Source of the DNA: a virus
Direction: 5' to 3' (one strand)
DNA length: 64,000 bases
IMG/VR virus record: IMGVR_UViG_3300009702_000785
Coordinates: 69,120 to 133,119 of that record
How positions within the stretch are numbered: the stretch's first letter is position 1; the number at the start of each line of letters is the position of its first letter. The translations under genes and the position numbers were made by a program. Below the pieces are notes generated by a model that saw nothing but the letters and a program-made list of their open reading frames with translations, did not search any database and was not told the DNA's origin. Below are positions 11,417 through 64,000 of the stretch, piece by piece.

Positions 11417-11451
11417 GAAATGACAACTACCTCAAAAATATTTCGGAATAG

Positions 11452-11497
11452 GCAGGAATTAGCAATCTCCTGGCACAATGTGTTGCTGGAGGATACT
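11452..11497 (+). promoter_or_regulatory. Putative RBS-sequestering / competing RNA hairpins upstream of the homing endonuclease
   Basis: CTCC (11467-11470) is complementary to the RBS GGAG (11488-11491) and encloses GGCAC/GTGTT. An alternative stem is CAGGA (11453-11457)/TCCTG (11468-11472). Confidence 0.3.
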
Positions 11498-12351: not shown

Positions 12352-15300
12352 ATTTCATCGAGCACTCGTTATTATGGTCTAGGATTCTTTGATTTCGGTG
12401 ACCCGCTCGGAACAGACTTTGCAGGTCAGGTAGAAATTGATCGCTTTGTCTTTATCGACAAGCAGCTATATGGCTTGATGAGTGTGTTTGGTAATGGCGT
12501 GCTGAGTGGTTGGACTGTAGAAGTAGATGAATTATTCACGGTCAACATCAGTCCCGGCGTTGGAAACATTAACTTCGTGGCCGCAAGGACGGAGTTTCCT
12601 GCCACGATCACCGAGTTGGTTCCCAACTCGATCAGCTATATCTATGCCAAAAAGGTGGAACGCACCCGGTTTGCAGAAGATGTTGATTTCATTGTATGGC
12701 CTACGTCAGATTTAGGTGATCCTAATTTCTTATTATTAGCCGAAGTTGTTGTAGGCTCAACAGCCATTGAGAGCATTAACAATGACATACGACAAAACAT
12801 AGGTTTCATCGAGCTAATCAAAGCAGCAATCAAACTACACAAACACAGAGGCGGTTCACTGAATCCGTCCAAAATAGATTTGTCATCTGAGGTGAAGGGG
12901 CAATTGCCCTCATTCCGAATAGCTGACTTTGATGCAGAGAAGGTCACCAGCGGCACGTTTGATCTTTCTAGGATGCCACTCATAGACCACCAAAATCTAG
13001 AGAATGTCGGCCTACTAACTCACCCACAACTTGACAGCTTCGTGAAAACACTGGAATCCAGCAACAAAGAGATTTTCGGAGAGATCAGTACATCGAACCT
13101 GTTGCAGTTGATTCTAGCAATGAAACTTTTATACGATGATAGCCAATCTGCTTTCCATATTAGTGACAGATGGGTAGATCAATACTTCATCAACGAGTTT
13201 GCAGTTATTCCTGGTATTACACCAGATACTTATATCGACTTCGATAATACTACTGCCGATGTTGATTTGGAACAGCATGTTATCAGCGGAGTTCCACCTA
13301 CAACTGGCACATCATTTTATGTCACGTATGATACCAATCTTGCTTGGAATTCAGCCTACTCGCTTAACAACCTAGTTATTGCTAATGATACAGTAACTTT
13401 GGCATTCAACGAAGATGACGAATCTAACATTATAACTATTGAAGGTTTTGAATCGGCCACAGCACCTGGAGAAGATTTAAGTGGTGGTGACCAAACCCTC
13501 TTCAAAAAAGAAACCGTCATCATCTCCGACAATGCTATGATAGAAGCACATGATAGTGCGACTAACGTGGTGGAAGGATTCTACTCAGGTAAATTTACTT
13601 ATCAGCAGGCATTCAGGGTACAGTATGTCAAAGAATTTTCCACTACCCAAGACTGGTCTACATATGACTCATTCGTACTATATATCAAAAGCCTTGATGT
13701 TGTCCACGGACCAGTCAAGATGTACTTTGAGGGTAATAGCAGTGATGACCGTAGCATAGATTACACCCTGCTGACGGAAAGCTCGGCATCAAGTCCACAG
13801 ATTACAACCAACCCGGATTCATCTGCAAATGACTTTGAAGCTAGGGTGGTTGATCTATCTACAATACCTTTCCGTGACAACATAAAGAAGATCGTCATCT
13901 ATACCGACGATATCGAGAATTCCTTCAGCTTCTTTGTAGACTATATAAACATTCAGAGGGCAATCTTGCTACCTGAGAGCGGCACCATGAAATTGCGTTA
14001 CGCAAGTGGTGCCAAAGTTATATTCTCGAACATTCAGTGGGATACAATCGAACCATCTGGCACAGAGATCACTGTACGAGCACGAGCAGCAGATGGCACT
14101 ACACTACTTAATAGAGCAGAATATACTCCGTTTTTGAGTAGTGGTGATTTAATAAATCTAGAAGGCACGGACATCGAAATCGAAGTTGAGTTTTTCCCAG
14201 ATACAGACAGAATCAGTTCCCCTGTTATGCAGTTGTTGCGCATACTGGTGGTGACCGAGGCCGAGATTGATGGTTTCCGAATCGATACAGATGAGGAGTT
14301 TAACAGAGGTGAAAAACAAAATATAGAGGTGGACAGCAATATCACGCTTGATACACCTATATATGTGGATAGCTACTATTTCGCTTTAGCTAACACTGTT
14401 AATCAAGTCCACGAAAATACCACTAATTTTGATACGTCGTTTACCGAGTCAGATAACGTAGCATTATTTGGAGCGAGTTCACCTATTGCACCTAATACTA
14501 TTTTTGCTGCTGTCGAAGATAATACCGGTGATTCCGCATCGGCGCGATTTTTCGAGCCACGATCAGCACGAAGAGAAAGTGGTCGGGTGTTTGTAGTGGC
14601 CGATACATACAATGACCGTATTCTAGAGTATAGTGAAGACGGAACCTTACTGGCAGGGTTTGGGTCAATCAACTACGAGCATTCAAATAAGGTATTCCCT
14701 ATCTCTGCAAGTTACGATGTTAGAACTGGAATTTTGTATGTCGTTTGGAGTAAGAAAATATCATTCAAAACGGTTGACGTAAGCCAAATTACCTTACAAA
14801 CAGCCACAAGTCAGATACAGTTGATAAAGAACTTTGATAAGATTCTAGGTCTGACGACGGATGAATTAGATCAGGTAAATGCTGAGGGGCAAATTATGCC
14901 CATCTATCTGTCTACGCAAAATGCAGGCTTGGCTCAACAACTACCTACAAATAACGCTGCTTTTATGCTTGCGAGTGACAATGTTCTATCATCAGGTATT
15001 CAAAATGATTCCGTCTTCTACTCGAAAATAGCAACTGCCATCGGAATACCGATGTTTGTAGGCAACTTCGCTTACATTGATGGTATATTCTCTCCTACTT
15101 GGGTAGAGAAGACAGACACAAATACTTATATAATCTGTAACGGAAAGATTGCGGTCAAAGAATGGGAGTTCCCTAGTGAGGCATTCCCTGGTAGTACAGA
15201 GAGCATAAACCTTAGTACTAACGTATCTAGTATTATCGAGGTGAATGAAAATAACCAGATCGTATACGGGTTAGATAGCGTGATGGAGTTTTCACCATTC

Positions 15301-15750
15301 ATACCTGGACGTGCCCAAAAGATGGATGAACATACATTACTAATTGGTGGACTAAAGCCAGGAGGTAGTATTGGCAATCCTACAGGAGATTTTGATTTTC
15401 GCAGCGTTGGAGGGCCATCTGAAACTCGTAAAGCACAACGAGATGTTCTGAATGAAATGTTTTTCACTCGGGCCGGGACTCCTTACGTTGGTGCAGTAAT
15501 TGTATATGATACAAGATCAGGGGCAACCTCTTTTGAATACAGAAGTGCTGAAGGTGTGGTGGTCACTGATGTTGATATAGACCCAATGTCAGGGTCGTAT
15601 GTGGTAGCAGAAAGCAGCTTCACAAAATCAGGCCGAGTTATTAAGCTTGACGCTTCTGGGAACATTACTTTCAGTTTTGGGGAGGGTTTATATAGTCTGA
15701 TTAACGACATAAATGTTCAAATTGATGGGTCAGTTGTTGTCTCAACATAA
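12352..15750 (+). CDS. Virion structural protein with NHL/beta-propeller-like C-terminal region; probable ATT start
   Basis: The frame is open from 12319. The N-terminus STRYYGLGFFDFGD...RFVFIDKQL...GNGVLSGW aligns with the N-terminus of the 59289 gene, and the HKH...P..IDL and LPxxxH motifs are shared with it. NHL-like FFEPRSA...VADTYNDRILEY is present. Confidence 0.7.
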   Translation: MSSSTRYYGLGFFDFGDPLGTDFAGQVEIDRFVFIDKQLYGLMSVFGNGVLSGWTVEVDELFTVNISPGVGNINFVAARTEFPATITELVPNSISYIYAKKVERTRFAEDVDFIVWPTSDLGDPNFLLLAEVVVGSTAIESINNDIRQNIGFIELIKAAIKLHKHRGGSLNPSKIDLSSEVKGQLPSFRIADFDAEKVTSGTFDLSRMPLIDHQNLENVGLLTHPQLDSFVKTLESSNKEIFGEISTSNLLQLILAMKLLYDDSQSAFHISDRWVDQYFINEFAVIPGITPDTYIDFDNTTADVDLEQHVISGVPPTTGTSFYVTYDTNLAWNSAYSLNNLVIANDTVTLAFNEDDESNIITIEGFESATAPGEDLSGGDQTLFKKETVIISDNAMIEAHDSATNVVEGFYSGKFTYQQAFRVQYVKEFSTTQDWSTYDSFVLYIKSLDVVHGPVKMYFEGNSSDDRSIDYTLLTESSASSPQITTNPDSSANDFEARVVDLSTIPFRDNIKKIVIYTDDIENSFSFFVDYINIQRAILLPESGTMKLRYASGAKVIFSNIQWDTIEPSGTEITVRARAADGTTLLNRAEYTPFLSSGDLINLEGTDIEIEVEFFPDTDRISSPVMQLLRILVVTEAEIDGFRIDTDEEFNRGEKQNIEVDSNITLDTPIYVDSYYFALANTVNQVHENTTNFDTSFTESDNVALFGASSPIAPNTIFAAVEDNTGDSASARFFEPRSARRESGRVFVVADTYNDRILEYSEDGTLLAGFGSINYEHSNKVFPISASYDVRTGILYVVWSKKISFKTVDVSQITLQTATSQIQLIKNFDKILGLTTDELDQVNAEGQIMPIYLSTQNAGLAQQLPTNNAAFMLASDNVLSSGIQNDSVFYSKIATAIGIPMFVGNFAYIDGIFSPTWVEKTDTNTYIICNGKIAVKEWEFPSEAFPGSTESINLSTNVSSIIEVNENNQIVYGLDSVMEFSPFIPGRAQKMDEHTLLIGGLKPGGSIGNPTGDFDFRSVGGPSETRKAQRDVLNEMFFTRAGTPYVGAVIVYDTRSGATSFEYRSAEGVVVTDVDIDPMSGSYVVAESSFTKSGRVIKLDASGNITFSFGEGLYSLINDINVQIDGSVVVST

Positions 15751-50915: not shown

Positions 50916-53900
50916 ATGGTTCAAATAGGAAACATTAAGGTAAACGGACTAGATGCTGAGACATCTGTTCCAGTAGTCGCCCCTCAACCATACATTACAT
51001 GGACTTTTGAAGGAGACGCCGGAGCACCAGCCCAAGCTACGTACTCAATTCGCATTGGTTCCGAAACTGATAACTGGGGCAACAGCCTATTCAATGGCAC
51101 GGCTTTATCTATCAATGTGGACGGCAGTGAAAACTCATACAAGTATGAGGGATTCCAGCTATCAAGAGGTACAACGTATTACGGCCAGATCAGTGCAACC
51201 GATATTGATGAGGACGCAATAGTTTGGACCACATTCTCCTTTACTATTAATCGTCTACCTTTTATTACTGGGTATTCCTTGTCTCCAGACAACCCTTCGT
51301 CGGCGGATCATATCGACCTGATTTACACTTTTCAGGATGCGGACGGGCATAATCAAGCTGGCACGTTGATACGATGGTTCAGAAACAACCTGCCTATGAC
51401 AGCCTACGACAATCTATGTACCCTACCGTCTAGTGCCACCAATCCTAGTGACTATTGGAACGCTAAGATAATCCCATCAGACGGTATTGAATTTGGCACA
51501 ATGGTGGAAACTTCAACCGTCACAGTTGGAGCCGTAGATTCAAATATTACATCGGCACAAATACTTCCACCGGATGCCAACGTAGATGATATTCTTAAAG
51601 TTGTCTACACCGTGCAGGATGATGAGTACTTTACTTTCACAGGAAGCGTGCAAGTGGAGTGGTATATCAACGATACCTTATACACTACAGGTGATGAACA
51701 CATACGACCACAGTTAAGTGTAGGTGATTCAGTCTATGCAATAGTCAAATTACTAGACGGAACTTCGGTTATTTCACAGCGCACGAGTGATGCGCTGGTT
51801 ATAGAGGATTCGGTTTGGCACATAGATGACCTGACAATTAGCGGTCTGGTTGATACAGAGAATTTAACCAACCTTGATCCCATTATCGCCTGGACAGCCC
51901 ATAAATCCACAGCAGATGCTAGTGATGTACCTACATACTTCCGTCTTCTCATTACAAAAACTCCGTCTTTGGATGGCCCACTATACGACACTGGAATTAC
52001 TGAGTATGTGAAAGATTCGCATGCCATTTCGGACGGAATTTTGTCGAGAGGGCAAAGATACTACGTGCATATTGGGGCAAGTGATATATCACCTATACCT
52101 GATTCATCGTTTGTAACCAAAGAAATTCGCATGGCTGGCTCTAGTTGGGCCGAAACCGTCGATAACGCCACTGGATGGACCATAGAGTTCAAGGCAGGTC
52201 TGGCTCTAGATAAGGCTGATGGTACTCCCATGAGTCAACAAGATATAGATACACTTGATTACACTCCGAATTTTGGAGTTTATATACATGATGGTTCGAG
52301 ATTCTGCGCCATAACAGTTGGTCTCAGAGAAGTCACATTCCTATCAGACTCGGCGGTGACCTATACTTTTGGGCAACGACTTAGCAGCACCCAGATTACT
52401 TCAGCATCTAGTGGCAAGACATTTAGAATTGCTGCTCAAGGGAATGATATTCGCATCTTTATGAACAATGAACTTATTATTGAGGGTTCCGGCACTTTAA
52501 CTAACCCATCACTGCTGAAGATGATCGAATATGGTGACATAGATGGGAAAAACGAGAATATATGTCTATTCAAGTCATTCAGATACACGACAAGTGGCGC
52601 TTACAGGCTGGATGATAGTCTGACAGATACCGACACCTACTACTTTTCACGTATAGGGAAACTAGAGGGTGGTAGTATTGAGTTTGTGTTTGGAGATTTC
52701 CTATCTTGGACTCCAACAGATGCTACTGAATCCAGTAAGCTAATCAAGTTCGATGAAAACAACGAGGTTACCCGTCTTGCGACTGTAAGTCGAAACTTCT
52801 CACCTATTACTGCTATATACATTGACGAGTCTCGGAATAAGTTTATAGGTACAGCGAATGGTGTAACCCAGATCACTGGTGAAAAACATGATCCCGACTA
52901 TGAGTTTCTAACAGATTCGCTCGAAATAGAAATATCTCCTGAAGATTTTGACAGAATGAGTACTGTTACCTCAGACAAAATAGCTGCCGTAGAACCAAAC
53001 TATAGGCAGGGTTGGTTTACCATTGATACAACATATAGAAGTTTGGGTGCTATTGAAACTCAATCAGGGTTCTTTAGTGGAGACCCATATGATCCTTATA
53101 AGTTTGCATTATCTAGCCATGCAATTCATTACTACTCTCAAAGAACACATGGACACTCTTGGTATGACAATGTTGACAACGAGAAGGGTTGGCAAGTATC
53201 TTTTGGATTTGATCTGGAGTCCTTAGAGGCAGACGATTACGAAGATCAAAACTTGGATAAAACAGGATTCGGAGTGTATATTAATGACGGCACTAGACAA
53301 GAAGTTCTTTACTTCTATGAGGATAGAATACGACTGTTCTATGCTAATGTGTACGTACCTATTTCAACAGCCAATGCTCGTGATTATGTTATTTCAGGAA
53401 AGGGTAATAACCTACTAATTTACCAGAAATTACAGAGCAATAAATCATCTAGTTACAGTTTGATCGTGAATGCTTCAGGTCTATTCACAACATCTGCATC
53501 TATTTCGGGTAATAGTCGCAAGCCTGCTGTCGCAGTCGATAGTAGTGGCATGTATCACGCAGTGTGGCACGATGATGGCAATGGTCGATCCCAGATTCTT
53601 CATAGCTCGTTCGATGGTCAATCGTGGAGTAACCCAGAAACTATTACGGAATCCTTACAATTCAGTATGAAGAACCCAGCAATTACTATTGATAGCCTGG
53701 ACCGCATCTGGATTGCCTATGAGGATACTTCGTGGGGACAGAGTGAAATATCTGTGAGTGTCAAAGATTCTGGTGGGTGGAATCCAAAGACCCGAATAAC
53801 TAACGCCAGGAGCAATAAAGGACGACCTGACATCCAGGTGGATACAGAGGATAATGTTCATTTGGTTTGGGAAGATGACCGAGATGGTCATTACAAAATA

Positions 53901-56900
53901 TTCTGGGCACAATGGAATAACGCCCGCAAAGCTTGGGAATCTTCTGGGCAGGCTGGCGACGATGATGCCATTATGCAGTTTAACTCAACGGATGAGTACC
54001 AAGTTGATGAGGCAGTCGAATTCAAGAATCCTAAACTGGGGCTCATCTATCCGTATATCTATCTGGTATGTGAGGGCCATTACCAAGAGAGCCAGACATC
54101 TGCGATATACAGGGGATTCCGTGATCTGGTAGACAAGTTCTGGAACACCTCTGGATCGATTATCACAGATGATGGCGACTTTAGTGGCATTGGACAACCA
54201 CAACGAGTTAGTGATCCAACACGCAACGCCTGGAACCCTTCTATTGCCACAACACCAACCTCTAAGCAATATGTCATTGCTTGGGAAGATAGAACCGAAC
54301 CAGTAACTCATATTTACGGTGTATCCTATTACTATAATGGGCTGCCCCGTGCAGAGGTACAACCTTTAACTAGCTATGGAACTGATTGTACTAACCCTTC
54401 TGTCGGATTTGTTGCCACACAAGGTGTTGTTGCTTTTGAGCGAGACAATAATATTTATACCTGCTCATATAACCCGCTATCAAACGAGTTTGATTCGTCA
54501 TATAGTGGTGGTACAGATACGATTATAGATACCGGGACTAGATCAGTGTCCAACCCTGCCTTACCAAAATTATCTTCATCTTCAGCGTTCGTTATGCTGT
54601 ACGACTACAGTTTAACTCGAAATGATGGTACATTAGCAAGCAAGGAGTTCCCAGAATATCAGTTGATTGGCGATGCTACTATAGACCATACGGTAATTCA
54701 GACAGATGTTGGTGCTCCTGGCCCGACTGTATACGAATATACATACGTCACGACCACAATAGGGACCGATGCTGTTAGCAAAGTAGATACTAAGGAATTC
54801 GCTTTTGGTGACTTTGCTGAAAACGTTGGCATGGTGGCACACTGGCAGGACATCAAGATGTACTTTGGATACGATGCTCGACCGCAGAGTATTGTTATGT
54901 ACAACGGTGATACCGTCCAAAACTGGCCTGACCCGAGAATTAACGACTTGTTTGTTGATACTTTCGGAAATGTGGTGGCTGCCACTTTTGGTGGACTTGT
55001 ATACTATAACAAAGGGACTGGTCAATTACTACAGATTGAAGGGCATACCAGTGAGTATACTGGTACCTGTAGTTCATCTTCTTGCTTGCTCATGGATGTT
55101 GATGCTGATTCTGGTGAGACACGAGGCATATTGACCACAACAGTCAAATGGGGCGGAAACGGTATTTGGTATGTCGGCACCACTAACGGTGTGATTGTGT
55201 CACAGAACGCAGGCAAAGAATGGTCTACCCTAGACGCAGTAGCCCTTGGTGATTCTACCATAGGTTCAAAGATTGTTAATGACATCGCAGTGGATAAAGA
55301 TGGTAAGGCTTATATTGCCGCACATGAAGAAAGTGCAACATCTGGCTACATCTACATATCGATGCCCAATACGACTACTATTGAAATTGCTATGGATGAA
55401 GTGATTAAAACGATAGAAGTGGACGAAAATTACATTGTATGGGCTGGATCAGACAAAGGATTGTGGCGAGTAGAGAATGCCAGAAACAAAATCAAGTTCG
55501 ACCGAAGCAGCGGAATGAAATCTGCTGACGTAAACGATATCACCATTGTTAACAAGCACCTGAGATACTTATCTACAGCCAATGGTGTTGAAAGAATGAA
55601 CGGACTTACATTTAGCAACTTGAATGTCGATACTCACAACTTGGTCAATAATAACGTTAATACTGTTCTTTGGGATGCCAGCACCAACAGCTTGTGGGTT
55701 GGGGCATTGTATACTTTGCATGAGATTGTATTCAGAGATGAGGCACATGAGATTATCGATAATGAAACCGTCCATTACGATAATTCCGAAATATCAACTA
55801 AGGAACTGTACGATAAAAACATATATTACATTATCGATCCCGATGTGATTGAGGCAGAAAACCTCACCTCTGAATCTGCTGCGGTTTTCATTAACCGCAA
55901 CCCAATAGATTTCGGTTATGTAGTATCTGAGTCATCTATTTTCTTCTTGACGGATTTACTGGTTAGTGACCAAGTAGAGGTCGAGGTTTCAGAGCGTTTT
56001 GTCGAGTTTCATAATTTCAACCAGAAGTCTATCGAAGAGGAAGTCCTTGGCTCGAAAAGGTCTATCATCACTAAAGTCAATAAGACAAGCCAGGATCAGT
56101 TCATATTCTTATCCGGTGGTGATAAAAATTCCGTCTTGTTATATTCGGGTGAAACCAGTTTGCCGTTTACCACAATCACCCTAGATACCCGACCACCTGA
56201 AGGATGCATAGAGCAACTTGAAACACTTAGCAGGACAAAGATACGATTCCGCATTTTTGCTACTGATGATCTGTCAGGAGTGAATGGGTTTATGTTGTCC
56301 AACTATCCTAACTTCACCTCTGATGGTGAAACGCCATTAGATTTCCAGCCTGCACAATCTATATATGAGCATGATATTGGCGAAGGTATCAACAATGTTT
56401 TCGACAGTTTATCCATACCGAGTACGGTGACTATTGGACCAACCACGTATGATGTCGGTACTGGTGCTGCCTTGGCTCCGTGGTTTGACGAACGAAACAG
56501 TGTAACGTACCTGTTTATGGCCACAAGCGCTCCTGCCGTTGTCTTTAGGTACGATCCTACTACGGATGAGTGGACGGGTATACAAGTACTAGAAACTTCA
56601 GATGCTGATCGAATCGTCACTGGCATGAAAACTCTTGACAATATAGTATATCTCACCACTGGGTCACCTGCCACCGGGGCGGAGGGTAATATTTGGAGAT
56701 GTTCTGACGGCATTGCAGAGCAACCTTTCACCAAATTAGGAGGTACTCCCAGCGCTCAATACGCAAGAGGAATTACATCGGGCTCAGATCAGACAGTTTA
56801 CTTCGGGTCGAGCAACGGGACTATTTACCAGTATAATAATAACAACCTGTCAATCCTGTATCACAACATAGGCGATGAGGTAAACGATTTGGACGTGTTT

Positions 56901-59198
56901 GTGAATACGATGATAGTTGGAACTGGTCATGAAGGTCGTATATACTCAATTAATCTAGAGACCAATGACAACCTGATTATATTCGACTCATCAGATACTG
57001 ACATCAACAATATTCATATCAAAGATTCAAAGATCGTTGCGTCGCAGGATAAAGCATTACTATACGCAGGCTCTAGTAATTCCACAACGATATATCGAAC
57101 TAACTTAGACTCGCTGGACTTTGTGAAGAGCTATAGCTCCTTCGGCAAAGACATTAATCTAATTGGCAGCCCAGAAAGTATAGTATTTGAATCAGATCAG
57201 TCCCAGCCTGTGGCTGGAAGTTCGACAATAGCAGCCATCGGTGATTCACTATTTAGGCATGTTGTTCCAGCTTGGGAATTCTTCTATAAGCACGATGAGG
57301 ATATTAACGATTTCACGCAGTACCAGACGAATGGAGTCGAAGGTATATGGATAGTATCTAATACTAAGGTTACAAAATGGACAGCAGCATTCACTGAGAA
57401 GACTGTTTACCTCAGATTACGCGACAATGCTGGCAATATCAGTGCCCCACCTGTCTTGTTTGACGAACAGGGTCAAGCGATTATTTGCCCAGACCTGGAT
57501 GCTAACCCACCTGTAACATGCTGCTCTGCGTACTCGATCAAGATTGAGGATTTGGCGGATTTCGTGAATGAAGGTCGCATCGTAGATGTGGATAGCACGG
57601 GCAACATTGACTACGCTTACGAATCACCAAACAATCGAGTTTTCTACTCGGCAGATCAGATCGACCAGGAGGTGGGGATTTATACCTCAGAGATATTGAA
57701 TGGCTTTAACGATTTTGTCTCGTGGAAATCAATTGAGTGGGATTCGGATGAACCTACTGGAACAAGTATAAATGTGCAAATAAGGACTGGAGTTACTGAA
57801 GATAATGTGGAAGATGCAGATTGGAGTGCTAACGTTGTTTTAGGGTCAGACGGGACAGCTTCTCTTGAACATATTACTGATCAATATTTACAGTTTAGAA
57901 CAATACTTACGAGCCAGGTCAGGGATTTGTCACCCACTCTAACCTCTGTAACGATAAGAAGCATTACTTCACAAGCTAGTCACTTCTTTACAACTAATTT
58001 TGTCTTGCCTAGCAGACCAATTAAAGGGGTTTTGACTGCAAATACGTATATACCAGTATCATCTGATATTGTATTCGGTGTAAATACCAAAGACAGCGTA
58101 GACTTTGGTGACTACCAGATTATTGAGGATAATAGACTATTTACAACAACTCAGGGGCAGTTTGGAAGCGACTTGCGAATCGGTGCTAAATTGCTATCAC
58201 CTGGATTACCGCAGCTACAGCCGACTAACAACCCTGGTGACCCGTATGATGCCTCATCGTTTATCTGTACGATTGAATTCGACTATGAGAATATTGGTCC
58301 TACAGATAAAAACTATGATTTCAGAGTTCGATTCTATAATGATCTATTTAGAACTCAGTTGGGACATACGTTCTTTTCTGGAAATGACCAGTCGGGGTGG
58401 TCATATAGTGGGGGAGCGGACGATGTTTTCCCATCTGATGGGTTACTTATTACATCCGGCTCTACCAGGTCTATAGAATTCGTGCCTATGGGCATTAGCC
58501 AAAATCAGAAGTGGTATATTACAGTTGAGGCCATATCAACCGACGTGGGTGCATATTATGAGTCGATATTGGATAATACCTCTTTCATCTGTGCTGCTTG
58601 CAACGTTGATTATATAGCAGGACTGACTGCTCGTTACTTCTGCGGCTTACCGGGTCCACTAGAAGAGATGCCCATATTCTCCAGCTTCACCCCATCACAT
58701 ATTGGGACGGAGCCTGTTATTAATTTTCCAGCACACAACGGCGGCTGGCGTAGCGGTGACCCATCGTTAGGTACTATGAACGATTGTTGGGATAATTTTG
58801 CCGCCAGATTCCAAGGTTCTATCTATTGTCCTGTTACGGGAGAGTACACGTTTGCAATTGAGTCTGACGACGGATCGAAGTTGTTTATCGACAATGAAAT
58901 TTTGATTGACAACGATCACTTACAACCGATGACTAAGCTTTATGGTGACCCAATACAACTAAATATGGGATGGCATACTATCGAAATACACTACTTTGAT
59001 TCGTCGTTTGATCAAGGTTTGATTCTGTACTGGACACCGCCTGGTGAGACTGAGACCATAGTTCCATCCGACAATTTGGCTCACCCAGTTGTAGATGAGT
59101 ATTGCGATCTTAACGTGCCGCAAATATTCAACTTCATTGTACAGTTTGAATTGGAAAATGGCGAAACCGTGCAACTCAACCTAACGCCGCCATCGTAG
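50916..59198 (+). CDS. Giant modular virion protein with Ig-like repeats, two lectin-like repeats, several beta-propellers and a C-terminal PA14 domain
   Basis: 2760 aa. PA14 motif DNFAARFQGSI...GEYTFAIESDDGSKLFID...GWHTIEIHYF...LYW at about 58615-59085; duplicated SW..VDN..GW...F...FGVYI.DG.R; regulator-propeller-like blades (WYVGTTNGV, WAGSDKGL). Confidence 0.85.
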   Translation: MVQIGNIKVNGLDAETSVPVVAPQPYITWTFEGDAGAPAQATYSIRIGSETDNWGNSLFNGTALSINVDGSENSYKYEGFQLSRGTTYYGQISATDIDEDAIVWTTFSFTINRLPFITGYSLSPDNPSSADHIDLIYTFQDADGHNQAGTLIRWFRNNLPMTAYDNLCTLPSSATNPSDYWNAKIIPSDGIEFGTMVETSTVTVGAVDSNITSAQILPPDANVDDILKVVYTVQDDEYFTFTGSVQVEWYINDTLYTTGDEHIRPQLSVGDSVYAIVKLLDGTSVISQRTSDALVIEDSVWHIDDLTISGLVDTENLTNLDPIIAWTAHKSTADASDVPTYFRLLITKTPSLDGPLYDTGITEYVKDSHAISDGILSRGQRYYVHIGASDISPIPDSSFVTKEIRMAGSSWAETVDNATGWTIEFKAGLALDKADGTPMSQQDIDTLDYTPNFGVYIHDGSRFCAITVGLREVTFLSDSAVTYTFGQRLSSTQITSASSGKTFRIAAQGNDIRIFMNNELIIEGSGTLTNPSLLKMIEYGDIDGKNENICLFKSFRYTTSGAYRLDDSLTDTDTYYFSRIGKLEGGSIEFVFGDFLSWTPTDATESSKLIKFDENNEVTRLATVSRNFSPITAIYIDESRNKFIGTANGVTQITGEKHDPDYEFLTDSLEIEISPEDFDRMSTVTSDKIAAVEPNYRQGWFTIDTTYRSLGAIETQSGFFSGDPYDPYKFALSSHAIHYYSQRTHGHSWYDNVDNEKGWQVSFGFDLESLEADDYEDQNLDKTGFGVYINDGTRQEVLYFYEDRIRLFYANVYVPISTANARDYVISGKGNNLLIYQKLQSNKSSSYSLIVNASGLFTTSASISGNSRKPAVAVDSSGMYHAVWHDDGNGRSQILHSSFDGQSWSNPETITESLQFSMKNPAITIDSLDRIWIAYEDTSWGQSEISVSVKDSGGWNPKTRITNARSNKGRPDIQVDTEDNVHLVWEDDRDGHYKIFWAQWNNARKAWESSGQAGDDDAIMQFNSTDEYQVDEAVEFKNPKLGLIYPYIYLVCEGHYQESQTSAIYRGFRDLVDKFWNTSGSIITDDGDFSGIGQPQRVSDPTRNAWNPSIATTPTSKQYVIAWEDRTEPVTHIYGVSYYYNGLPRAEVQPLTSYGTDCTNPSVGFVATQGVVAFERDNNIYTCSYNPLSNEFDSSYSGGTDTIIDTGTRSVSNPALPKLSSSSAFVMLYDYSLTRNDGTLASKEFPEYQLIGDATIDHTVIQTDVGAPGPTVYEYTYVTTTIGTDAVSKVDTKEFAFGDFAENVGMVAHWQDIKMYFGYDARPQSIVMYNGDTVQNWPDPRINDLFVDTFGNVVAATFGGLVYYNKGTGQLLQIEGHTSEYTGTCSSSSCLLMDVDADSGETRGILTTTVKWGGNGIWYVGTTNGVIVSQNAGKEWSTLDAVALGDSTIGSKIVNDIAVDKDGKAYIAAHEESATSGYIYISMPNTTTIEIAMDEVIKTIEVDENYIVWAGSDKGLWRVENARNKIKFDRSSGMKSADVNDITIVNKHLRYLSTANGVERMNGLTFSNLNVDTHNLVNNNVNTVLWDASTNSLWVGALYTLHEIVFRDEAHEIIDNETVHYDNSEISTKELYDKNIYYIIDPDVIEAENLTSESAAVFINRNPIDFGYVVSESSIFFLTDLLVSDQVEVEVSERFVEFHNFNQKSIEEEVLGSKRSIITKVNKTSQDQFIFLSGGDKNSVLLYSGETSLPFTTITLDTRPPEGCIEQLETLSRTKIRFRIFATDDLSGVNGFMLSNYPNFTSDGETPLDFQPAQSIYEHDIGEGINNVFDSLSIPSTVTIGPTTYDVGTGAALAPWFDERNSVTYLFMATSAPAVVFRYDPTTDEWTGIQVLETSDADRIVTGMKTLDNIVYLTTGSPATGAEGNIWRCSDGIAEQPFTKLGGTPSAQYARGITSGSDQTVYFGSSNGTIYQYNNNNLSILYHNIGDEVNDLDVFVNTMIVGTGHEGRIYSINLETNDNLIIFDSSDTDINNIHIKDSKIVASQDKALLYAGSSNSTTIYRTNLDSLDFVKSYSSFGKDINLIGSPESIVFESDQSQPVAGSSTIAAIGDSLFRHVVPAWEFFYKHDEDINDFTQYQTNGVEGIWIVSNTKVTKWTAAFTEKTVYLRLRDNAGNISAPPVLFDEQGQAIICPDLDANPPVTCCSAYSIKIEDLADFVNEGRIVDVDSTGNIDYAYESPNNRVFYSADQIDQEVGIYTSEILNGFNDFVSWKSIEWDSDEPTGTSINVQIRTGVTEDNVEDADWSANVVLGSDGTASLEHITDQYLQFRTILTSQVRDLSPTLTSVTIRSITSQASHFFTTNFVLPSRPIKGVLTANTYIPVSSDIVFGVNTKDSVDFGDYQIIEDNRLFTTTQGQFGSDLRIGAKLLSPGLPQLQPTNNPGDPYDASSFICTIEFDYENIGPTDKNYDFRVRFYNDLFRTQLGHTFFSGNDQSGWSYSGGADDVFPSDGLLITSGSTRSIEFVPMGISQNQKWYITVEAISTDVGAYYESILDNTSFICAACNVDYIAGLTARYFCGLPGPLEEMPIFSSFTPSHIGTEPVINFPAHNGGWRSGDPSLGTMNDCWDNFAARFQGSIYCPVTGEYTFAIESDDGSKLFIDNEILIDNDHLQPMTKLYGDPIQLNMGWHTIEIHYFDSSFDQGLILYWTPPGETETIVPSDNLAHPVVDEYCDLNVPQIFNFIVQFELENGETVQLNLTPPS

Positions 59199-59285
59199 GA
59201 TTTAATTTTGAAGTATTTTTGTACAAGACCTAATAACATTCAACAAGGGCGTGCTTGCCCACATTGCGAACGAAGGGAGGATTAA
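59199..59285 (+). pseudogene. Short remnant of a zinc-ribbon (homing-endonuclease-associated type) coding sequence
   Basis: In frame after the TAG the sequence reads DLILKYFCTRPNNIQQGRACPHCERRED*. F..RP.N...G..CP.C resembles the Zn-binding repeats of phage endonucleases. There is no ATG. Confidence 0.45.
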
Positions 59286-59288
59286 GGA

Positions 59289-62200
59289 ATGCCTATACAA
59301 ACTGAACATTATTTGTTAGAGGCATTCCTTTAACTTGATGGAGATGCCTATTCATCATTGGCAGACCGTCGCAGATTTTCTACCATCGATAACCAAATGT
59401 ATCGGGTGTCGGAGATCATAGGCGATGGCATCATCGACGGGTGGGAAATCGTACCTCAGACGTTTCCTAATGTAGTTGTAACTGCCGGTGGTGGACTGAT
59501 TGATGGTTATTACGTTAACACGTTTGATGACCAGGCATTCACTCTATCTGATAATGGAATTTTCTATTTATATTCTCAACGCAGAGTTGGTATCATTGGA
59601 TCAGAAGGACCAAAATCTGACATTGCATCCGTGACATATATAGATTCTGGGCCTCCATCTAATCCAACTGGTCTTACAATAGCATCGCCTATACCATCGA
59701 GTACTAGGTATAAATTTACAATACCTCTCCAGTGGACTGGGATTAGTGATATTGACTTCAGCCATTACCAAATTCAGAGAAATAAGGATGGCGGCGATTA
59801 CGAAATTGTGGATACCATAAGTTCAACTTATTACGAAGATGAGATTGATGAGAATGCAATATATAATTACAGGGTTTATGCCATAGACCAGAGTGGGAAC
59901 AAATCTTCAGGTTATACTGGTGGTATGATATCGGTTCCGCTGTCTGATAGTTTACCACCCAACCCAATAGAGGTTGAAATGTACCAATCTGAGGCAGCTA
60001 TCAACGTATTATGGAAGCGTCACCCTGCGGGTGATTTTTCGATCATAGATCATTGGTTAATAACCTATATTGAATTAGATACTGATTACTCCCCTGTTGC
60101 TTCAACCTCCCTATCATTTATTGTAAATAAAGTTCTGTATTACAACCGCATTGACGATCTAACGGTCGGTAAAACTTATCAGGTTACTTTGCAAGCAGTC
60201 GATAGTCAGGGCAGAGAATCGACGGGTGTGGTACGCAACATAATACCACAACCTTCACCTGCTCCACGAGACCCCGAGGGTGTGGCATATACTTTTGATG
60301 TAGGAGAATTCGGTGTAAAAGTTGATATGTCGTGGACTAGCGGTGACACACCGTATGATCCCGCCATAAGCTACCGATACAAAATATATCCACGTATAGG
60401 CGATCTGGAAGAAGCACAGTCTATTGATATCCCTCCAGGTCTTACCGAAGAGCAAATTTCGCTATATACTTTCAATGGCTCTGAGTACTTTTCAATACCA
60501 GAGAACACTCTAATAACTTTCAGAATTACTGCATTGGATGTTAACGGCTTTGAGAGTGCTGGAACATACGTTAGATTCGTCACCGCCCAATTCTCATTGC
60601 CTCTCTCTTTAGGAAATGTGCAAACAGACTTTGATCTGGACACAAGCAACTTGGTTGTGACGTGGACCAACCAGGCTGATACCGATGATGTCAATGTAAG
60701 AATAGTGGAGGAAGAGATCACTGAAGATGCATATGACGCTCCTGTGGAAGTGATTAACGAAAATATAGGGCGGTCAGAACGATACGTCTATGAAGATGCT
60801 GAGACAGACAAAAAGTACACGGTATACCTGACACCTATCAACTCTGATGATGTTGAGGGTAACCCGTCTGTTAGTGTTGAACTTTCATTAGGATCGGGTA
60901 ATTTGCCATTGCCTGACCCACCGAATAACATTGAGTCCAAGGCGGGCGACAAGCAGATTCTACTTACATGGGATCGTAGCGACACAGCTTATACGAATTA
61001 CTACAATCTATATCGCAAGGAAGGTGATGTTACATTCAATTCTGAGGACTGGACCTTACTAGATACTATACAGGAATCAGTTACCAGATTTACCGACTAT
61101 GGACTTGAGAACGACCAGCCATATTCATATTTCATAACGGCAACCGACATTTATGGTAGAGAGTCGGACAATCTAGGGGAAGGTGCAGTCAACCTTAACT
61201 TCACTACTGCGGTGCCCAGAGCAGAAGGTGCCCTGACGGAGCCAACAGGCGTCACTGTCACTATAATCGGTGATGATATCGAGATTACTTGGGATGCACT
61301 TCTAGAAGAGTTTGATTCATATACCATATACCGAACAATTGACAACCTGCATAGTTGGGAGGTTATCGCTCATGTGGACAAAGATACGTTCACCTATATG
61401 GATGCGAATATACCCCTTATTGATGGTACGGTATTCCATTATATTGTAGACAAAACAATCAACGATGCTGATATAGTAGTGCAAAGTTCGGATATAACCC
61501 CGCCGAATTCAGTCTGCATAGGCGAAATCACTTTGTCTTCTGGAGCATTTGGGATTCCAGATATAACGTGTCGTCGTGACATTGCAGATATGGCAGACCC
61601 CTTAGCAGAATATACATTCTCTTTCATATTAGACCATAAGCATAAAGGCTTAAGACCGCTCGATCCTGATCGTATTGACCTGAATGCTGAACTAATCATT
61701 ACGGACTGGTTCACAGTTGATGGTCGCATATGGTTTACTCGGGAAAACATACTAGGTGGCACTTATATAGTAAAAGTAGATGGAAGGTTCCCTAGAGTTT
61801 TCTTTGAGGTAGATGAAGTTACTGGAAGAATAATTTTTTCGGAAGCAATCAATACTAGCTCCACTATTGAAATGAGAATATTGGGTATAGAAGAAGTCCA
61901 GAATGTATTAGACGAATTTAGATTCGACAATATTCATGCCAAACAAGTGCAGTTTGGAGAATTAAATTTTGAGCAACTTCCTGAATTGAATCACGAGGGC
62001 AGAATACGGGAGTTAGTATTTCCTAAGAGGTATCTATTAGAGAGATACAATAATCATAACTTCATTGTACCACAGGGGAATAATGATTCCACCAAGACAT
62101 TTGGAGACGGCACAACATTCTATGCGACCATCGATAGTGATGGTAGGATCAAAGAAATTATAGATTTTGATACTTACGATGATGGTCTAGTAGTAGGGTT

Positions 62201-64000
62201 CCAGGCACCGTCTTACTCGTCAGATACAATCTTGAATCTGAAGCAAAGTACATCGGCTAACACCAATATAGAAAACGGAGATAATGTTGCTAATAACTAC
62301 ACATTTGCAAGTAGCACATTATTATGTTATACCTCATCAGCCGCCACAACCTTAAAGGCTTACAACTGGTCTACTGACACATTCCATACAATACGTGACA
62401 TGACCAGTGATTTAGCTTCCAGTCTGAGCAACAGACTGATAAACCTGGACTCTACACGTAAAAAAATGTACATTGGCGGCGATGTCTCAGGAGGCGTAGG
62501 GGATGTACATTCTGTTGACCCTGCAACCGGTCGTGTGCTATATACGACACAAGTTAGCAGTATATTAGGTACTGACATGAATCGGGTTATATACAACCGT
62601 GATGATGACCTATTCTATATAATTGACCAGTTCAACGAGATAAGATATTTTAGCGAGGCAACGAGTTGGGTGGCAACCTCATTAGGTAACCCTTTATTTA
62701 TCAATATAAGTCCTTCTTATGTTGATTCATCGCAAACCATAGATAACCTTGCATCATCTACGGATATCAACCCTGGACTGTTTTATGGTACAGCATCACC
62801 AAACAGCTTAATTCGTATGCGTATTAGCCTGACAGGGGCTCATACTTTTGATTCTATCTGTATGCCGATATTATATGCTATAAGAGCATCAGCATACGAC
62901 CATGACACCCCTGGATTGCTGATTTCAACATTTGGAGTAGACTTAGTACGTCTCACCAACTTTTCTGACCCTGGATTTTCTGGCACGTGTACAGAGACTA
63001 TTCTGACGACACCATCTGAATCTATAACAGGAATGCTACAAATATCTGGTTCTTGGTGGCTTGGCAATCCAGATACACTCAAAGTGGGTCATTTTGGTGG
63101 ACTGTCATCAAATTCTTATCTGCGATTTTCTATTGATGTCCCGTCAGAGCATACTATATCAACCTCTACCCTAAACCTAACTGGGTACGGTTCAATTGGA
63201 AGTTTCAGCGTTAGAGTTTCGGTTTTAGACCCATCAGAGTATGCCGATTCTATTGAAGCTAGTGATGATGCACTAGCCACGATATCGAATCTGGCATCCA
63301 TGATTATAACTCCCGCAGCTGTTGGTGATGGTGATCAGATACAGATTAAGGTTCATAGCCTAATGGAAGCGTTTATTGCCAGTGATGCGTATTATCCTGG
63401 TAGGCATGTTATTTTCAAGTTTGAGGCATTGTCTCCATCTCCAGTAAACTATCGTGAATATTATGGATACGGGACGAGTAGTGCTCCCGGCCTTGATATA
63501 TCCTATGTAGTTGATACTGCTGAAGTGAGTAGTAATCCAGGCGGATTCCAAAGTGAAAAAGCATACAGACTCCAATGGGAGTTTGAGGATAGCAAAGAAA
63601 CCAGATGGGTGCGTATATCAACAAGAGAAACTGCCCTTAAACCCAATCCTGTGATTGATTTGGTTAAACGTCTACGGTTCAGGATTAAACTTAACACCGG
63701 ATCAGTATATATGGGATTTGGGATCAGAGAGATAACACAAACAGGCTTGGAGACGGGGGAGAACGGCGGAATTGTTGGTCCGATTGAATGGGTAAATGTA
63801 GATGAGATACTTACAGACGATGCGGGAAATGTTACACCAAAGGGGTCAACACTTGTCACAGCAAGTGACGAGTGGCAGGAAATTGATATTGACCTACAAA
63901 AAGCCTCTACAATCAGTTTGTTAGATGGCAACGGAATCCTTGGAAGAGGTTTAGGAGTACTAGAGCATATCGCATTTACTATTAACCCCGACAATCCCCC
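59289..64000 (+). CDS. Giant virion protein (runs off the window) with FN3 repeats, a propeller and a DNRLRE-like domain; in-frame TAA at codon 15
   Basis: RBS-rich GGGAGG...AAGGA before ATG 59289. MPIQTEHYLLEAFL*LDGDAY... is then open to the window end (absent from the ORF track because it has no stop). FN3 motifs (YRVYAIDQSGN, YFITATDIYGRES) at about 59640-61460, and SYLRFSIDVP...YREYYGY....PGLDISY near 63110-63510. Confidence 0.8.

What the first reader, a model, noticed from the sequence alone, without database searches (positions are those of the whole stretch)
59322..59342. CTT-TAA-CTT 'stop-hop'-like site at codon 15 of a giant structural gene
Seen: ATG 59289 with a strong RBS gives MPIQTEHYLLEAF-L(CTT)-TAA-L(CTT)-DGDAY..., followed by more than 1,500 open codons. 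The paralog N-terminus at 12352 (YGLGFFDFGD) aligns without gaps to YLLEAFLDGD only if 6 nt (TAA plus one CTT) are skipped. Established: matched take-off and landing codons flanking a stop define ribosomal stop-hopping (short translational bypassing). Inference: a programmed 6-nt hop could throttle expression of this protein. Alternatives are a 6-bp footprint of an excised element, an assembly error, or re-initiation at ATG 59397, which has no obvious RBS and would lose the conserved N-terminus.
Basis: partly seen in the sequence, partly recalled or inferred. Interest (0 to 1): 0.78.

Follow-up and report, generated by a model that had tools for sequence, protein, structure and literature searches.

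The report
Conserved six-base ribosome hop cassette
After codon 14 of a giant phage structural gene sits a stop codon plus a repeated leucine codon; ten diverged phages carry this insert, often beside a homing-endonuclease gene, and the family's fixed N-terminus is restored only if ribosomes hop six bases, which would be the first natural "stop-hop".

Summary
A GGGAGG ribosome-binding site and ATG 59289 open 14 codons, followed by CTT-TAA-CTT (59328-59336) and at least 1,554 open codons.

About 120 full-length homologues start with the same 14 residues and continue directly into the DGD motif. None has extra residues there, so the family sequence equals the hop product.

The interruption is not an error. 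Nine other alleles from independent metagenomes carry it at the same junction:
- All ten have a CTY take-off codon followed by a stop (TAA 3, TAG 5, TGA 2).
- Eight have a 6-nt gap with a CTT, CTC or CTA landing codon.
- Two are variants, of 9 nt and of 10 nt (+1 frame).

All ten also have a strong ribosome-binding site and a hairpin pairing the start region with the take-off codon; nine start at ATG. Sixteen uninterrupted close relatives lack the hairpin and mostly have weak initiation signals.

The cassette abuts a zinc-finger homing-endonuclease gene in six alleles, and the window keeps a 62-nt remnant. One allele pair is 100% identical downstream of the insert and unrelated upstream.

Best reading (about 0.65): a programmed stop-hop carried on a homing-endonuclease cassette, a minimal analogue of T4 gene 60/MobA. 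No protein-level evidence exists yet.

The parts
50916..59198 (+). Upstream giant structural gene (2,760 aa, PA14 domain near the C-terminus). It is the conserved left neighbour of the locus.
   Evidence: ORF list; Pfam PA14 E 4e-17. The same neighbour (2,722-2,863 aa, PA14) is seen in L007, L015 and L080.
59226..59284 (+). Remnant of the 3' end of a zinc-finger homing-endonuclease gene: its last ~19 codons, including the CPxC motif and the stop TAA at 59282-84. The rest of the gene has been deleted.
   Evidence: tblastn with the intact 363-aa gene of L014 gives 65% identity over 17 aa, E 0.009. The DNA aligns closely (most columns identical) with L022, whose endonuclease gene is still present, from about 59224 onward, and homology stops upstream of that.
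59275..59280 (+). Strong Shine-Dalgarno sequence (GGGAGG), 8 nt before the ATG.
   Evidence: All ten interrupted alleles have an equivalent strong site; most uninterrupted relatives do not.
59284..59330 (+). Hairpin with arms 59284-59297 and 59317-59330. The 5' arm contains the ATG. The 3' arm ends on the last base of the take-off codon.
   Evidence: an 11-bp perfect core within 14-nt arms, z -2.9 for the region. It is present in 10 of 10 interrupted alleles (-10.9 to -20.8 kcal/mol) and absent in 16 uninterrupted loci (0 to -7.4). Covariation support is weak.
59289..59330 (+). First coding segment: ATG plus 13 codons, encoding the family's conserved N-terminus up to Leu14.
   Evidence: homologues align from their residue 1.
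59328..59330 (+). Proposed take-off codon CTT (Leu14).
   Evidence: CTT or CTC in 10 of 10 interrupted alleles. Codon 14 in uninterrupted relatives is mostly TTG, TTA or ATT.
59331..59333 (+). In-frame stop TAA, which would occupy the A site at take-off.
   Evidence: The same position holds TAA (3), TAG (5) or TGA (2) across alleles and never a sense codon.
59334..59336 (+). Proposed landing codon CTT.
   Evidence: CTT (6), CTC (1) and CTA (1) in the eight alleles with a 6-nt gap.
59337..63998 (+). Second coding segment. It resumes at Asp15 (GAT), stays open for 1,554 codons and is cut by the contig end. It has a conserved ~120-aa N-terminal domain followed by fibronectin type III repeats.
   Evidence: Full-length relatives are 2,100-2,600 aa.

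Best explanation
The site is a programmed short translational bypass (a 'stop-hop') built into a small mobile cassette.

Proposed steps:
1. Ribosomes start at the strong ribosome-binding site and ATG 59289 and read 14 codons.
2. They pause with peptidyl-tRNA-Leu on CTT in the P site and TAA in the A site. Some ribosomes terminate there.
3. In the others the tRNA unpairs, the mRNA slips 6 nt and the tRNA re-pairs with the second CTT.
4. Decoding resumes at Asp15, giving the normal family N-terminus with no extra residues.

The cassette consists of the endonuclease 3' end, a strong ribosome-binding site, ATG, 14 recoded codons, a hairpin, a stop and a Leu codon. It is the right-hand edge of a free-standing homing-endonuclease element that inserts between the PA14 giant gene and this gene.

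Three further points are inferred by analogy with T4 gene 60/MobA:
- The untranslated insert protects the carrier from its own nuclease without changing a protein segment that tolerates no insertion.
- The strong initiation signals compensate for inefficient hopping.
- The hairpin, which can only refold as the take-off region leaves the ribosome, helps pull the mRNA forward.

In this window the endonuclease gene has since been deleted and the cassette retained.

Shown: the anatomy, the conservation, the mobility signature and the family consensus. Inferred: the hop itself, its efficiency, the role of the hairpin and the immunity function.
For: 1. Family consensus. phmmer of the read-through N-terminus against 1.84 billion proteins gave 232 hits. 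Most align query residues 1-124 to their own 1-122, so they are two residues shorter. Their N-termini run straight from the conserved Phe13 and residue 14 into DGD. The F13-to-RF spacing is fixed, and no sequence has an insertion at the junction.

2. Recurrence. A scan seeded only with residues after the junction returned 61 loci, 5 of them interrupted at the same junction. Four more came from truncated gene calls. Take-off is CTY in 10 of 10 and a stop follows in 10 of 10 (TAA, TAG and TGA all occur). Landing is CTT, CTC or CTA in 8 of 8 six-nt alleles.

3. Both sides are translated. Synonymous differences occur on both sides of the stop. The ORFs after it stay open for 2,279-2,529 codons where enough sequence is available.

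4. There is no conserved re-initiation codon. The first ATG, GTG or TTG lies 6 to 78 codons after the gap.

5. The 10-nt variant (L015) changes frame, so readthrough cannot decode it.

6. Cassette-specific signals. A strong SD and the hairpin are present in 10 of 10 interrupted alleles, and nine of them start at ATG (L033 appears to start at ATA). The hairpin is present in 0 of 16 uninterrupted close relatives, which use weak sites and often TTG, ATT, ATC or GTG starts.

7. Mobility.
- L019 and L021 are 100% identical over 712 nt from the first base after the insert and unrelated upstream.
- Interrupted alleles are scattered through the tree of the downstream domain.
- Their 42-nt first segment is 83-93% identical in most interrupted pairs compared, against 64-71% just downstream.
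- The neighbouring ORF is a nuclease with four zinc-finger repeats that matches phage homing-endonuclease families. It lies between the PA14 gene and this gene.
- The window keeps only its last ~60 nt.

8. Precedent.
- Synthetic stop-hops with matched codons flanking a stop work in E. coli (PMC5009743).
- The gene 60 bypass insert rides on the MobA homing endonuclease, blocks self-cleavage, and is often kept after the nuclease is lost (bioRxiv 10.1101/2022.08.31.505936).
- Pairing of mRNA as it exits the ribosome has been proposed to drive forward bypassing (bioRxiv 10.1101/2024.12.09.627546).
Against: - There is no protein or ribosome-profiling evidence, and the host is unknown.
- The ten alleles share one homologous cassette, so they are not ten independent inventions. 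Part of the codon matching and hairpin conservation could be inheritance. Covariation in the stem is weak: two compensatory changes, with 14 of 500 shuffles doing as well.
- Two variants have imperfect landing triplets: CGT after 9 nt in L033 and ATT after 10 nt in L015. These need two-of-three pairing or another mechanism.
- From memory, unstimulated stop-hops in E. coli run at the percent level, which may be low for a virion protein unless stimulated.
- At take-off the 3' arm of the hairpin is inside the ribosome, so its role as a driver is geometric inference.
- Some uninterrupted alleles also have endonuclease genes upstream (L018, L020, L028, L030, L037), so the insert is not the only way to coexist with such genes.
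- The same phage has another in-frame TAG inside a giant gene, so some readthrough capacity cannot be excluded. Only about 30% of the genome is held.
Confidence: 0.65

Rival explanations
1. Stop-codon readthrough. A suppressor or near-cognate tRNA inserts an amino acid at TAA, and the second CTT is read as an extra leucine. The protein then carries a two-residue insertion after Leu14.
For: The 6-nt and 9-nt forms are in frame. The same window has another in-frame TAG that replaces a sense codon of the paralog. Only about 30% of the phage genome is held, so a suppressor tRNA could be missed.
Against: - No suppressor is found among the 8 tRNAs held.
- All three stop codons occur at this site in different phages.
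- No family member has a sense insertion at this junction among about 120 N-termini and 61 loci.
- The stop never mutated to a sense codon in ten alleles.
- The extra codon is always a CTN match of the take-off codon in the 6-nt class.
- The 10-nt allele cannot be decoded this way.
Confidence: 0.13
2. The first 14 codons are a separate leader peptide. The large protein is made without them, by re-initiation at a downstream start (TTG 59358 or ATG 59397). The hairpin and mini-ORF act only as a translational regulator.
For: Gene callers choose such starts. The hairpin sequesters the ATG. A short upstream ORF with a strong ribosome-binding site resembles known leader arrangements.
Against: - The residues between the stop and those starts (DGD.YS...) are conserved with synonymous variation.
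- The first canonical start lies anywhere from 6 to 78 codons downstream. In L019 it lies beyond the invariant GDG..GW motif.
- The 14 leader codons encode the family's conserved N-terminus.
- L019 and L021 share an identical body, and L021 makes it with the N-terminus attached.
Confidence: 0.07
3. The interrupted alleles are defective. A selfish endonuclease cassette has knocked out the gene, and the phages persist by complementation, by the paralog, or because the gene is dispensable. Alternatively, function is restored at the DNA level in a subpopulation by deletion between the two CTT repeats.
For: Homing elements can be mildly deleterious. A 3-nt direct repeat flanks the insert. The alleles come from metagenomes, so viability is unproven.
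Against: - Downstream ORFs of 2,279-2,529 codons remain intact in diverged alleles, including lineages that have already lost the endonuclease gene (WIN, L013, L015, L024).
- The cassette keeps a strong ribosome-binding site, a start codon and the hairpin.
- The stop is retained through TAA/TAG/TGA changes.
Confidence: 0.1
4. Sequencing or assembly error in this contig.
For: It is a single metagenome-assembled contig with no reads available.
Against: The same insert occurs in nine other alleles from different projects. One was assembled identically from two samples. The closest relative has the identical nine bases.
Confidence: 0.01

Closest known systems
Phage T4 gene 60 translational bypass cassette on the MobA homing-endonuclease element (Huang 1988; Bonocora 2011; Manning & Atkins, bioRxiv 10.1101/2022.08.31.505936)
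   Same: - An untranslated insert sits in a highly conserved coding segment.
- The take-off codon is followed directly by a stop, with a matched landing codon.
- The insert forms one unit with a neighbouring free-standing homing-endonuclease gene and spreads among diverged alleles.
- The nuclease gene is often lost while the bypass is kept.
   Different: - The gap is 6 nt (variants of 9 and 10 nt) instead of 50 nt.
- The codon is Leu CTY rather than Gly GGA.
- The nascent chain is only 14 residues, so no gene-60-type nascent-peptide signal is possible.
- There is no take-off stem-loop inside the gap. Instead a hairpin joins the start codon to the take-off codon.
- The nuclease is an unrelated zinc-finger (DUF4379) type.
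- The target is a giant structural gene of jumbo phages, and the cassette supplies the gene's own ribosome-binding site and start.
Synthetic 'stop-hops' in E. coli (Weiss et al. 1987; O'Connor et al. 1989; reviewed in PMC5009743)
   Same: Nine nucleotides specify one amino acid, with matched Leu codons flanking a stop. From memory, the classic construct was CUU-UAG-CUA, which is exactly the arrangement in allele L019.
   Different: Those were engineered, low-efficiency events without stimulators. This one is natural, conserved across diverged phages and accompanied by conserved flanking signals. The 2016 review states that no natural in-frame stop-hop was known.
prfB (release factor 2) programmed +1 frameshift
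   Same: A Leu CUU codon in the P site, a stop in the A site with C as the next base, and an upstream Shine-Dalgarno-like element. Pausing at a poorly recognised stop drives re-pairing of the P-site tRNA.
   Different: prfB shifts by one base onto an overlapping codon and is autoregulated by RF2. Here a +1 shift leads to a closed frame, and the productive event is a 6-nt in-frame move.
Mitochondrial 'byp' bypass elements of Magnusiomyces capitatus, and candidate short bypasses in Streptomyces phage terminase genes (PMC5009743)
   Same: Short inserts are skipped by the ribosome, and two-of-three matches between take-off and landing triplets are tolerated. This is relevant to the 9-nt and 10-nt variants.
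   Different: They occur in a different system (mitochondrial ribosomes, unused codons) or are untested candidates. Neither has a homing-endonuclease cassette or a start-to-take-off hairpin.

Membership tests
Programmed translational bypassing / stop-hop | Take-off and landing codons that the same peptidyl-tRNA can pair with, flanking the skipped bases | tested here: met
   CTT/CTT in the window. Across alleles take-off is CTY in 10 of 10 and landing is CTT, CTC or CTA in 8 of 8 six-nt gaps. Two variants match in only two of three positions.
Programmed translational bypassing / stop-hop | A slow-to-decode A-site codon (stop or rare codon) immediately after the take-off codon | tested here: met
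   A stop follows directly in 10 of 10 alleles (TAA 3, TAG 5, TGA 2).
Programmed translational bypassing / stop-hop | One polypeptide joins both segments and lacks the residues encoded by the gap | not testable with these tools
   Indirect support only. About 120 homologues have exactly the joined sequence and none has an insertion. Mass spectrometry is needed.
Programmed translational bypassing / stop-hop | Evolutionary conservation of the arrangement, with intact coding sequence on both sides | tested here: met
   Ten alleles are scattered through the host-gene tree (about 83% down to roughly 50% identity in the N-terminal domain). Synonymous variation occurs on both sides, and downstream ORFs reach 2,529 codons.
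T4 gene 60-type bypass cassette (homologous family) | A gap of about 50 nt with a take-off stem-loop, an internal mini-SD and a nascent-peptide signal, located in the topoisomerase gene with MobA | tested here: not met
   The gap is 6-10 nt and the nascent chain 14 residues. The host gene and the nuclease family are different. It works like gene 60 but is not a member.
Free-standing homing-endonuclease element | A nuclease ORF adjacent to the site, with presence/absence polymorphism at the same locus | tested here: met
   A 363-aa ORF with 4 DUF4379 zinc fingers matches PHROG endonuclease and homing-endonuclease families. It lies between the PA14 gene and the target gene. It is present in 6 of 10 interrupted alleles, a remnant in the window and absent in 3. 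The L019/L021 pair is identical downstream only.
Free-standing homing-endonuclease element | Cleavage of the insert-free allele near the junction, and resistance of the insert-bearing allele | not testable with these tools
   Inferred from the MobA precedent (bioRxiv 10.1101/2022.08.31.505936). It needs an in vitro cleavage or co-infection assay.
Stop-codon readthrough / code reassignment | The stop is decoded as an amino acid, so relatives should show a sense codon at the homologous position or the phage should use the stop as sense elsewhere | tested here: not met
   Relatives have no codon at all at this position. ORFs of thousands of codons are closed by ordinary stops under table 11. No suppressor tRNA is found in the 133 kb held.

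The most novel reading that the evidence does not exclude
This is the first natural, evolutionarily conserved in-frame stop-hop. It would be a minimal 6-nt translational bypass cassette that a zinc-finger homing endonuclease carries into the start of a giant jumbo-phage structural gene.

In this reading:
- The unread stop plus duplicated Leu codon serves as the element's immunity mark.
- The strong ribosome-binding site offsets hop inefficiency.
- The start-to-take-off hairpin drives the 6-nt forward slip.

It would be a second, independent invention of the gene 60/MobA strategy.
Probability: 0.55. Interest if true: 0.9.

Novelty: new variant of a known kind. Interest (0 to 1): 0.86.

Why it matters
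Stop-hopping has been known since 1987 only from engineered constructs. The main review of the field states that no natural case is known (PMC5009743). The one efficient natural bypass in bacteria and phages, T4 gene 60, was still described in 2022 as unique (bioRxiv 10.1101/2022.08.31.505936).

A second, unrelated and much simpler cassette would matter in four ways:
- It would show that ribosome bypassing is a recurrent solution when a selfish nuclease needs to mark a protein segment that tolerates no insertion.
- It offers a 50-nt natural system (ribosome-binding site, hairpin, 14 codons, stop, landing codon) with ready-made natural variants: three stop codons, three landing codons, and 9-nt and 10-nt gaps. 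These can be used to dissect take-off, landing and the proposed role of mRNA refolding at the ribosome exit.
- It shows that gene callers systematically truncate such genes. All interrupted alleles that appear in the protein databases were called from arbitrary internal starts.
- It suggests that in-frame stops flanked by matched codons in phage metagenomes deserve a systematic search.

Tried and rejected
- DNA search of the phage record collection with 3 kb around the site found no match.
- A pattern scan of viral contigs with the window protein alone confirmed no relative. A scan with the exact cassette motif gave 0 hits apart from the window's own record, which is left out of such scans.
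- Pfam and PHROGs on the protein itself gave only fibronectin type III, so the function stays 'virion/adhesin-like giant protein'.
- The AlphaFold model of the N-terminal 125 residues was too weak to use (mean pLDDT 68, about 57 for residues 1-30). No fold search was run on it.
- Truncated calls P0120, P0136 and P0093 were checked as possible further cases. They are cut by contig ends or differ elsewhere and are not examples.
- P0013/L007 looked truncated but is an uninterrupted allele with a miscalled start.
- The first tree run used wrong frames for three loci and was discarded, then redone.
- An attempt to fetch more flank of L019 and L021 failed because the records are not held.
- The 11-nt direct repeat at 59289 and 59344 is not conserved in other alleles. 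I read it as a by-product of coding.
- No intrinsic terminator is present at the hairpin.
- Code reassignment was rejected, because long ORFs close normally under table 11.
- A +1 frameshift at CTT-TAA was rejected for the window, because the +1 frame closes after about 27 codons (read).
- The intact endonuclease protein finds no full copy in the 133-kb contig.
Full report
**1. What is in the window**

The window is the last 64 kb of a 133-kb viral contig judged about 30% complete, so the source is a jumbo phage.

At the site, GGGAGG (59275-80) lies 8 nt before ATG 59289. Fourteen sense codons follow, then CTT (59328-30), TAA (59331-33) and CTT (59334-36). The frame is then open for 1,555 codons from the landing codon (1,554 from Asp15) to the contig end. 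The first canonical in-frame starts after the stop are TTG 59358 and ATG 59397.

The gene lies directly after a 2,760-aa gene with a PA14 domain. Its own recognisable domains are fibronectin type III repeats.

**2. The family N-terminus equals the hop product**

I translated the start with the stop as X and ran phmmer against 1.84 billion representative proteins. This gave 232 hits, 111 of them at E <= 1e-10.

Most hits align query residues 1-124 to their own residues 1-122. The homologues begin at the same methionine, share the 14 pre-stop residues and are two residues shorter. Their sequences run from the conserved Phe13 and residue 14 straight into DGD.YS.

In about 120 full-length N-termini the spacing from Phe13 to the invariant Arg-Phe is fixed. 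One sequence has a deletion, and none has an insertion at the junction.

The window's own paralog (open frame from 12319) keeps the same landmarks at the same spacing.

**3. The interruption recurs**

Several top hits had gene calls starting 20-37 residues late. I fetched their DNA.
- One was an ordinary uninterrupted allele with a miscalled start (L007).
- Three had CTT-TAG-CTT at exactly the same junction (L006, L013, L014).
- One had CTC-TGA followed by a 10-nt gap that moves the body into the +1 frame (L015).

I then scanned metagenome contigs with an alignment that contains only residues after the junction, so the search could not favour either state. It returned 61 loci. Five are interrupted at the same place, all within the 22 closest loci:
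- CTT-TAG-CTC (L017)
- CTT-TAG-CTA (L019)
- CTT-TAA-CTT (L022 and L024)
- a 9-nt form, CTT-TGA plus two codons (L033)

L022 is the window's closest relative (83% identity over 235 aa) and comes from a different sample. The L014 allele was assembled identically in two samples. Assembly error is therefore excluded.

Across the ten alleles:
- The take-off codon is always CTY.
- The next codon is always a stop (TAA 3, TAG 5, TGA 2).
- In the eight 6-nt alleles the landing codon is always CTN.
- Codon 14 of uninterrupted close relatives is mostly TTG, TTA or ATT.

Codons on both sides of the stop differ synonymously between alleles. The frames after the gap stay open for 2,279-2,529 codons where the contig allows. 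The first canonical start after the gap lies anywhere from 6 to 78 codons downstream, so there is no conserved re-initiation site.

**4. A cassette, not just a stop**

| Feature | Interrupted alleles (10) | Uninterrupted close relatives (16 loci) |
|---|---|---|
| Ribosome-binding site | strong in all | mostly weak |
| Start codon | ATG in 9; L033 appears to use ATA | ATG 8, TTG 4, ATT 2, GTG 1, ATC 1 |
| Start-to-take-off hairpin | present in all | absent |
| Fold energy of the 52-nt segment | -10.9 to -20.8 kcal/mol | 0 to -7.4 kcal/mol |

Sources.

The hairpin's 5' arm contains the start codon, and its 3' arm ends on the take-off codon. In the window the arms are 59284-97 and 59317-30. The uninterrupted relatives encode the same amino acids without the hairpin.

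The stem is largely invariant. There are two compensatory changes, one of which tracks the CTC take-off codon of L015, and a few G-U changes. Covariation support is therefore modest, with 14 of 500 shuffles doing as well.

**5. The cassette is the edge of a homing-endonuclease element**

- *Breakpoint.* L019 (interrupted) and L021 (uninterrupted, TTG start) are 100% identical over 712 nt starting at the first base after the insert. Upstream they are unrelated. L021 has the end of the PA14 gene there and L019 has a different ORF.
- *The ORF.* In L014 that ORF is intact at 363 aa. It has four DUF4379 treble-clef zinc fingers (E 7.5e-28) around a central domain. It matches PHROG endonuclease and homing-endonuclease families (best E 8e-54). 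It lies between the PA14 gene and the interrupted gene.
- *Distribution.* The ORF or its C-terminal part is present in six interrupted alleles and absent in three. In the window it is reduced to its last ~60 nt, which align closely with L022 until homology stops abruptly upstream.
- *Tree.* In a tree of the 230 residues after the junction, interrupted alleles are interleaved with uninterrupted ones.
- *Identity contrast.* The 42-nt first segment is 83-93% identical in most interrupted pairs compared, against 64-71% for the next 150 nt. The L019/L021 pair shows the reverse, 76% against 100%.

The association with a nuclease gene is not exclusive. Five uninterrupted alleles carry other nuclease gene forms at the same intergenic spot. 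In addition, the window's paralog at 12352 is directly preceded by a LAGLIDADG homing-endonuclease gene. The conserved 5' end of this gene family is evidently a recurrent homing target.

**6. Mechanism**

The reading that fits all alleles is a short translational bypass. The ribosome pauses with tRNA-Leu on CTY and a stop in the A site. The mRNA slips 6 nt (9 or 10 in the variants), the tRNA re-pairs with CTN, and decoding resumes at Asp15. This yields the invariant family sequence.

Rival readings fare as follows:
- *Readthrough* would add residues that no family member has. It would require suppression of all three stops in different phages, and it cannot decode the frame-changing allele. 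No suppressor is among the 8 tRNAs held, five of which are tRNA-Leu, including a normal-looking GAG isoacceptor.
- *Re-initiation* lacks a conserved start and would discard conserved residues.
- *A dead gene* is hard to square with intact 2,500-codon frames in lineages that have already lost the nuclease.

Three points are inferred rather than shown.
- *Why a stop.* The segment tolerates no insertion, so an insert that marks the DNA must stay untranslated. This is the rationale given for gene 60/MobA (bioRxiv 10.1101/2022.08.31.505936).
- *Why strong initiation signals.* They would offset a low hop efficiency, whereas uninterrupted alleles reach low expression through weak starts.
- *Why the hairpin.* At take-off its 3' arm lies inside the ribosome. 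The stem can only zip up as those bases emerge, which would pull the mRNA forward. This matches the 'exiting-mRNA pairing as driver' proposal for gene 60 (bioRxiv 10.1101/2024.12.09.627546). While a ribosome waits at the stop, the start codon arm is also unpaired, so a second ribosome could load and collide (compare PMC6815119). I cannot discriminate between these roles.

**7. Comparison and novelty**

The site works like T4 gene 60 but is not homologous to it. The gap length, codon, signals, nuclease family and host gene all differ.

It matches the synthetic stop-hops of Weiss and colleagues in form. The 2016 review says of natural in-frame stop hopping that no occurrences are known (PMC5009743). 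Full-text searches found no later report.

I class it as a new variant of a known kind.

**8. Caveats**

- There is no protein evidence, and the host is unknown.
- The ten alleles share one cassette lineage.
- Two variants have imperfect landing triplets.
- The same phage has an in-frame TAG that replaces a sense codon in another giant gene (31858-60 against the paralog near 45304). This keeps some readthrough capacity on the table.

Noticed in passing
window 11420-12349 and 12352-15750: A LAGLIDADG homing-endonuclease gene (Pfam LAGLIDADG_3 E 6.5e-17; PHROG endonuclease E 2e-36) ends 2 nt before the paralog of the hop gene. The paralog's conserved N-terminus has no ATG, GTG or TTG. ATT 12352 sits 7 nt after an AAAGAGGG ribosome-binding site and aligns with Met1 of the family, so an ATT start is likely.
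   Followed up: partly
loci L021, L025, L026, L027, L030, L034, L035, L037, L044: Many uninterrupted family members have TTG, GTG, ATT or ATC at the position of the conserved Met1, with weak ribosome-binding sites. This looks like family-wide selection for weak initiation, or start-codon changes linked to the homing elements.
   Followed up: partly
window 31858-31860 (paralog position near 45304): An in-frame TAG (AAT-TAG-TGT) lies inside a giant gene of about 4,900 codons, opposite a Thr codon of the paralog, with homology continuing on both sides. It is a substitution-type stop with no matched flanking codons, so it would be readthrough or a true split rather than a hop.
   Followed up: partly
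G000:C1:23423-26145 (outside the window): A cluster of 8 tRNA genes includes five tRNA-Leu (anticodons TAA, TAG, CAG, CAA, GAG). The TAA and CAG ones are only 74-76 nt long and lack the long variable arm expected of bacterial tRNA-Leu.
   Followed up: no
L015:1128-1143 and L033 (about 377-394): Variant interruptions occur at the same junction. L015 has CTC-TGA plus a 10-nt gap leading to the +1 frame, with ATT as the triplet before the resume codon. L033 has CTT-TGA-AAA-CGT (9 nt), and its first segment appears to start at ATA. How these are decoded is unexplained.
   Followed up: partly
L018:1-380: In the uninterrupted sister allele of the window, a zinc-ribbon endonuclease-like ORF with a decayed CPxC motif runs into the first codons of the structural gene in another frame. 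This suggests a different resolution of the same insertion.
   Followed up: no
L078:1-40: A distant family member on a short contig has an in-frame TAG about ten codons further into the N-terminal domain (before the conserved Arg-Arg). It could be an error, a reassigned code or another recoding site.
   Followed up: no
window 59289-59299 and 59344-59354: An 11-nt direct repeat (one mismatch) lies 55 nt apart and could allow an alternative pairing of the 3' hairpin arm with downstream sequence. It is not conserved in other alleles.
   Followed up: partly
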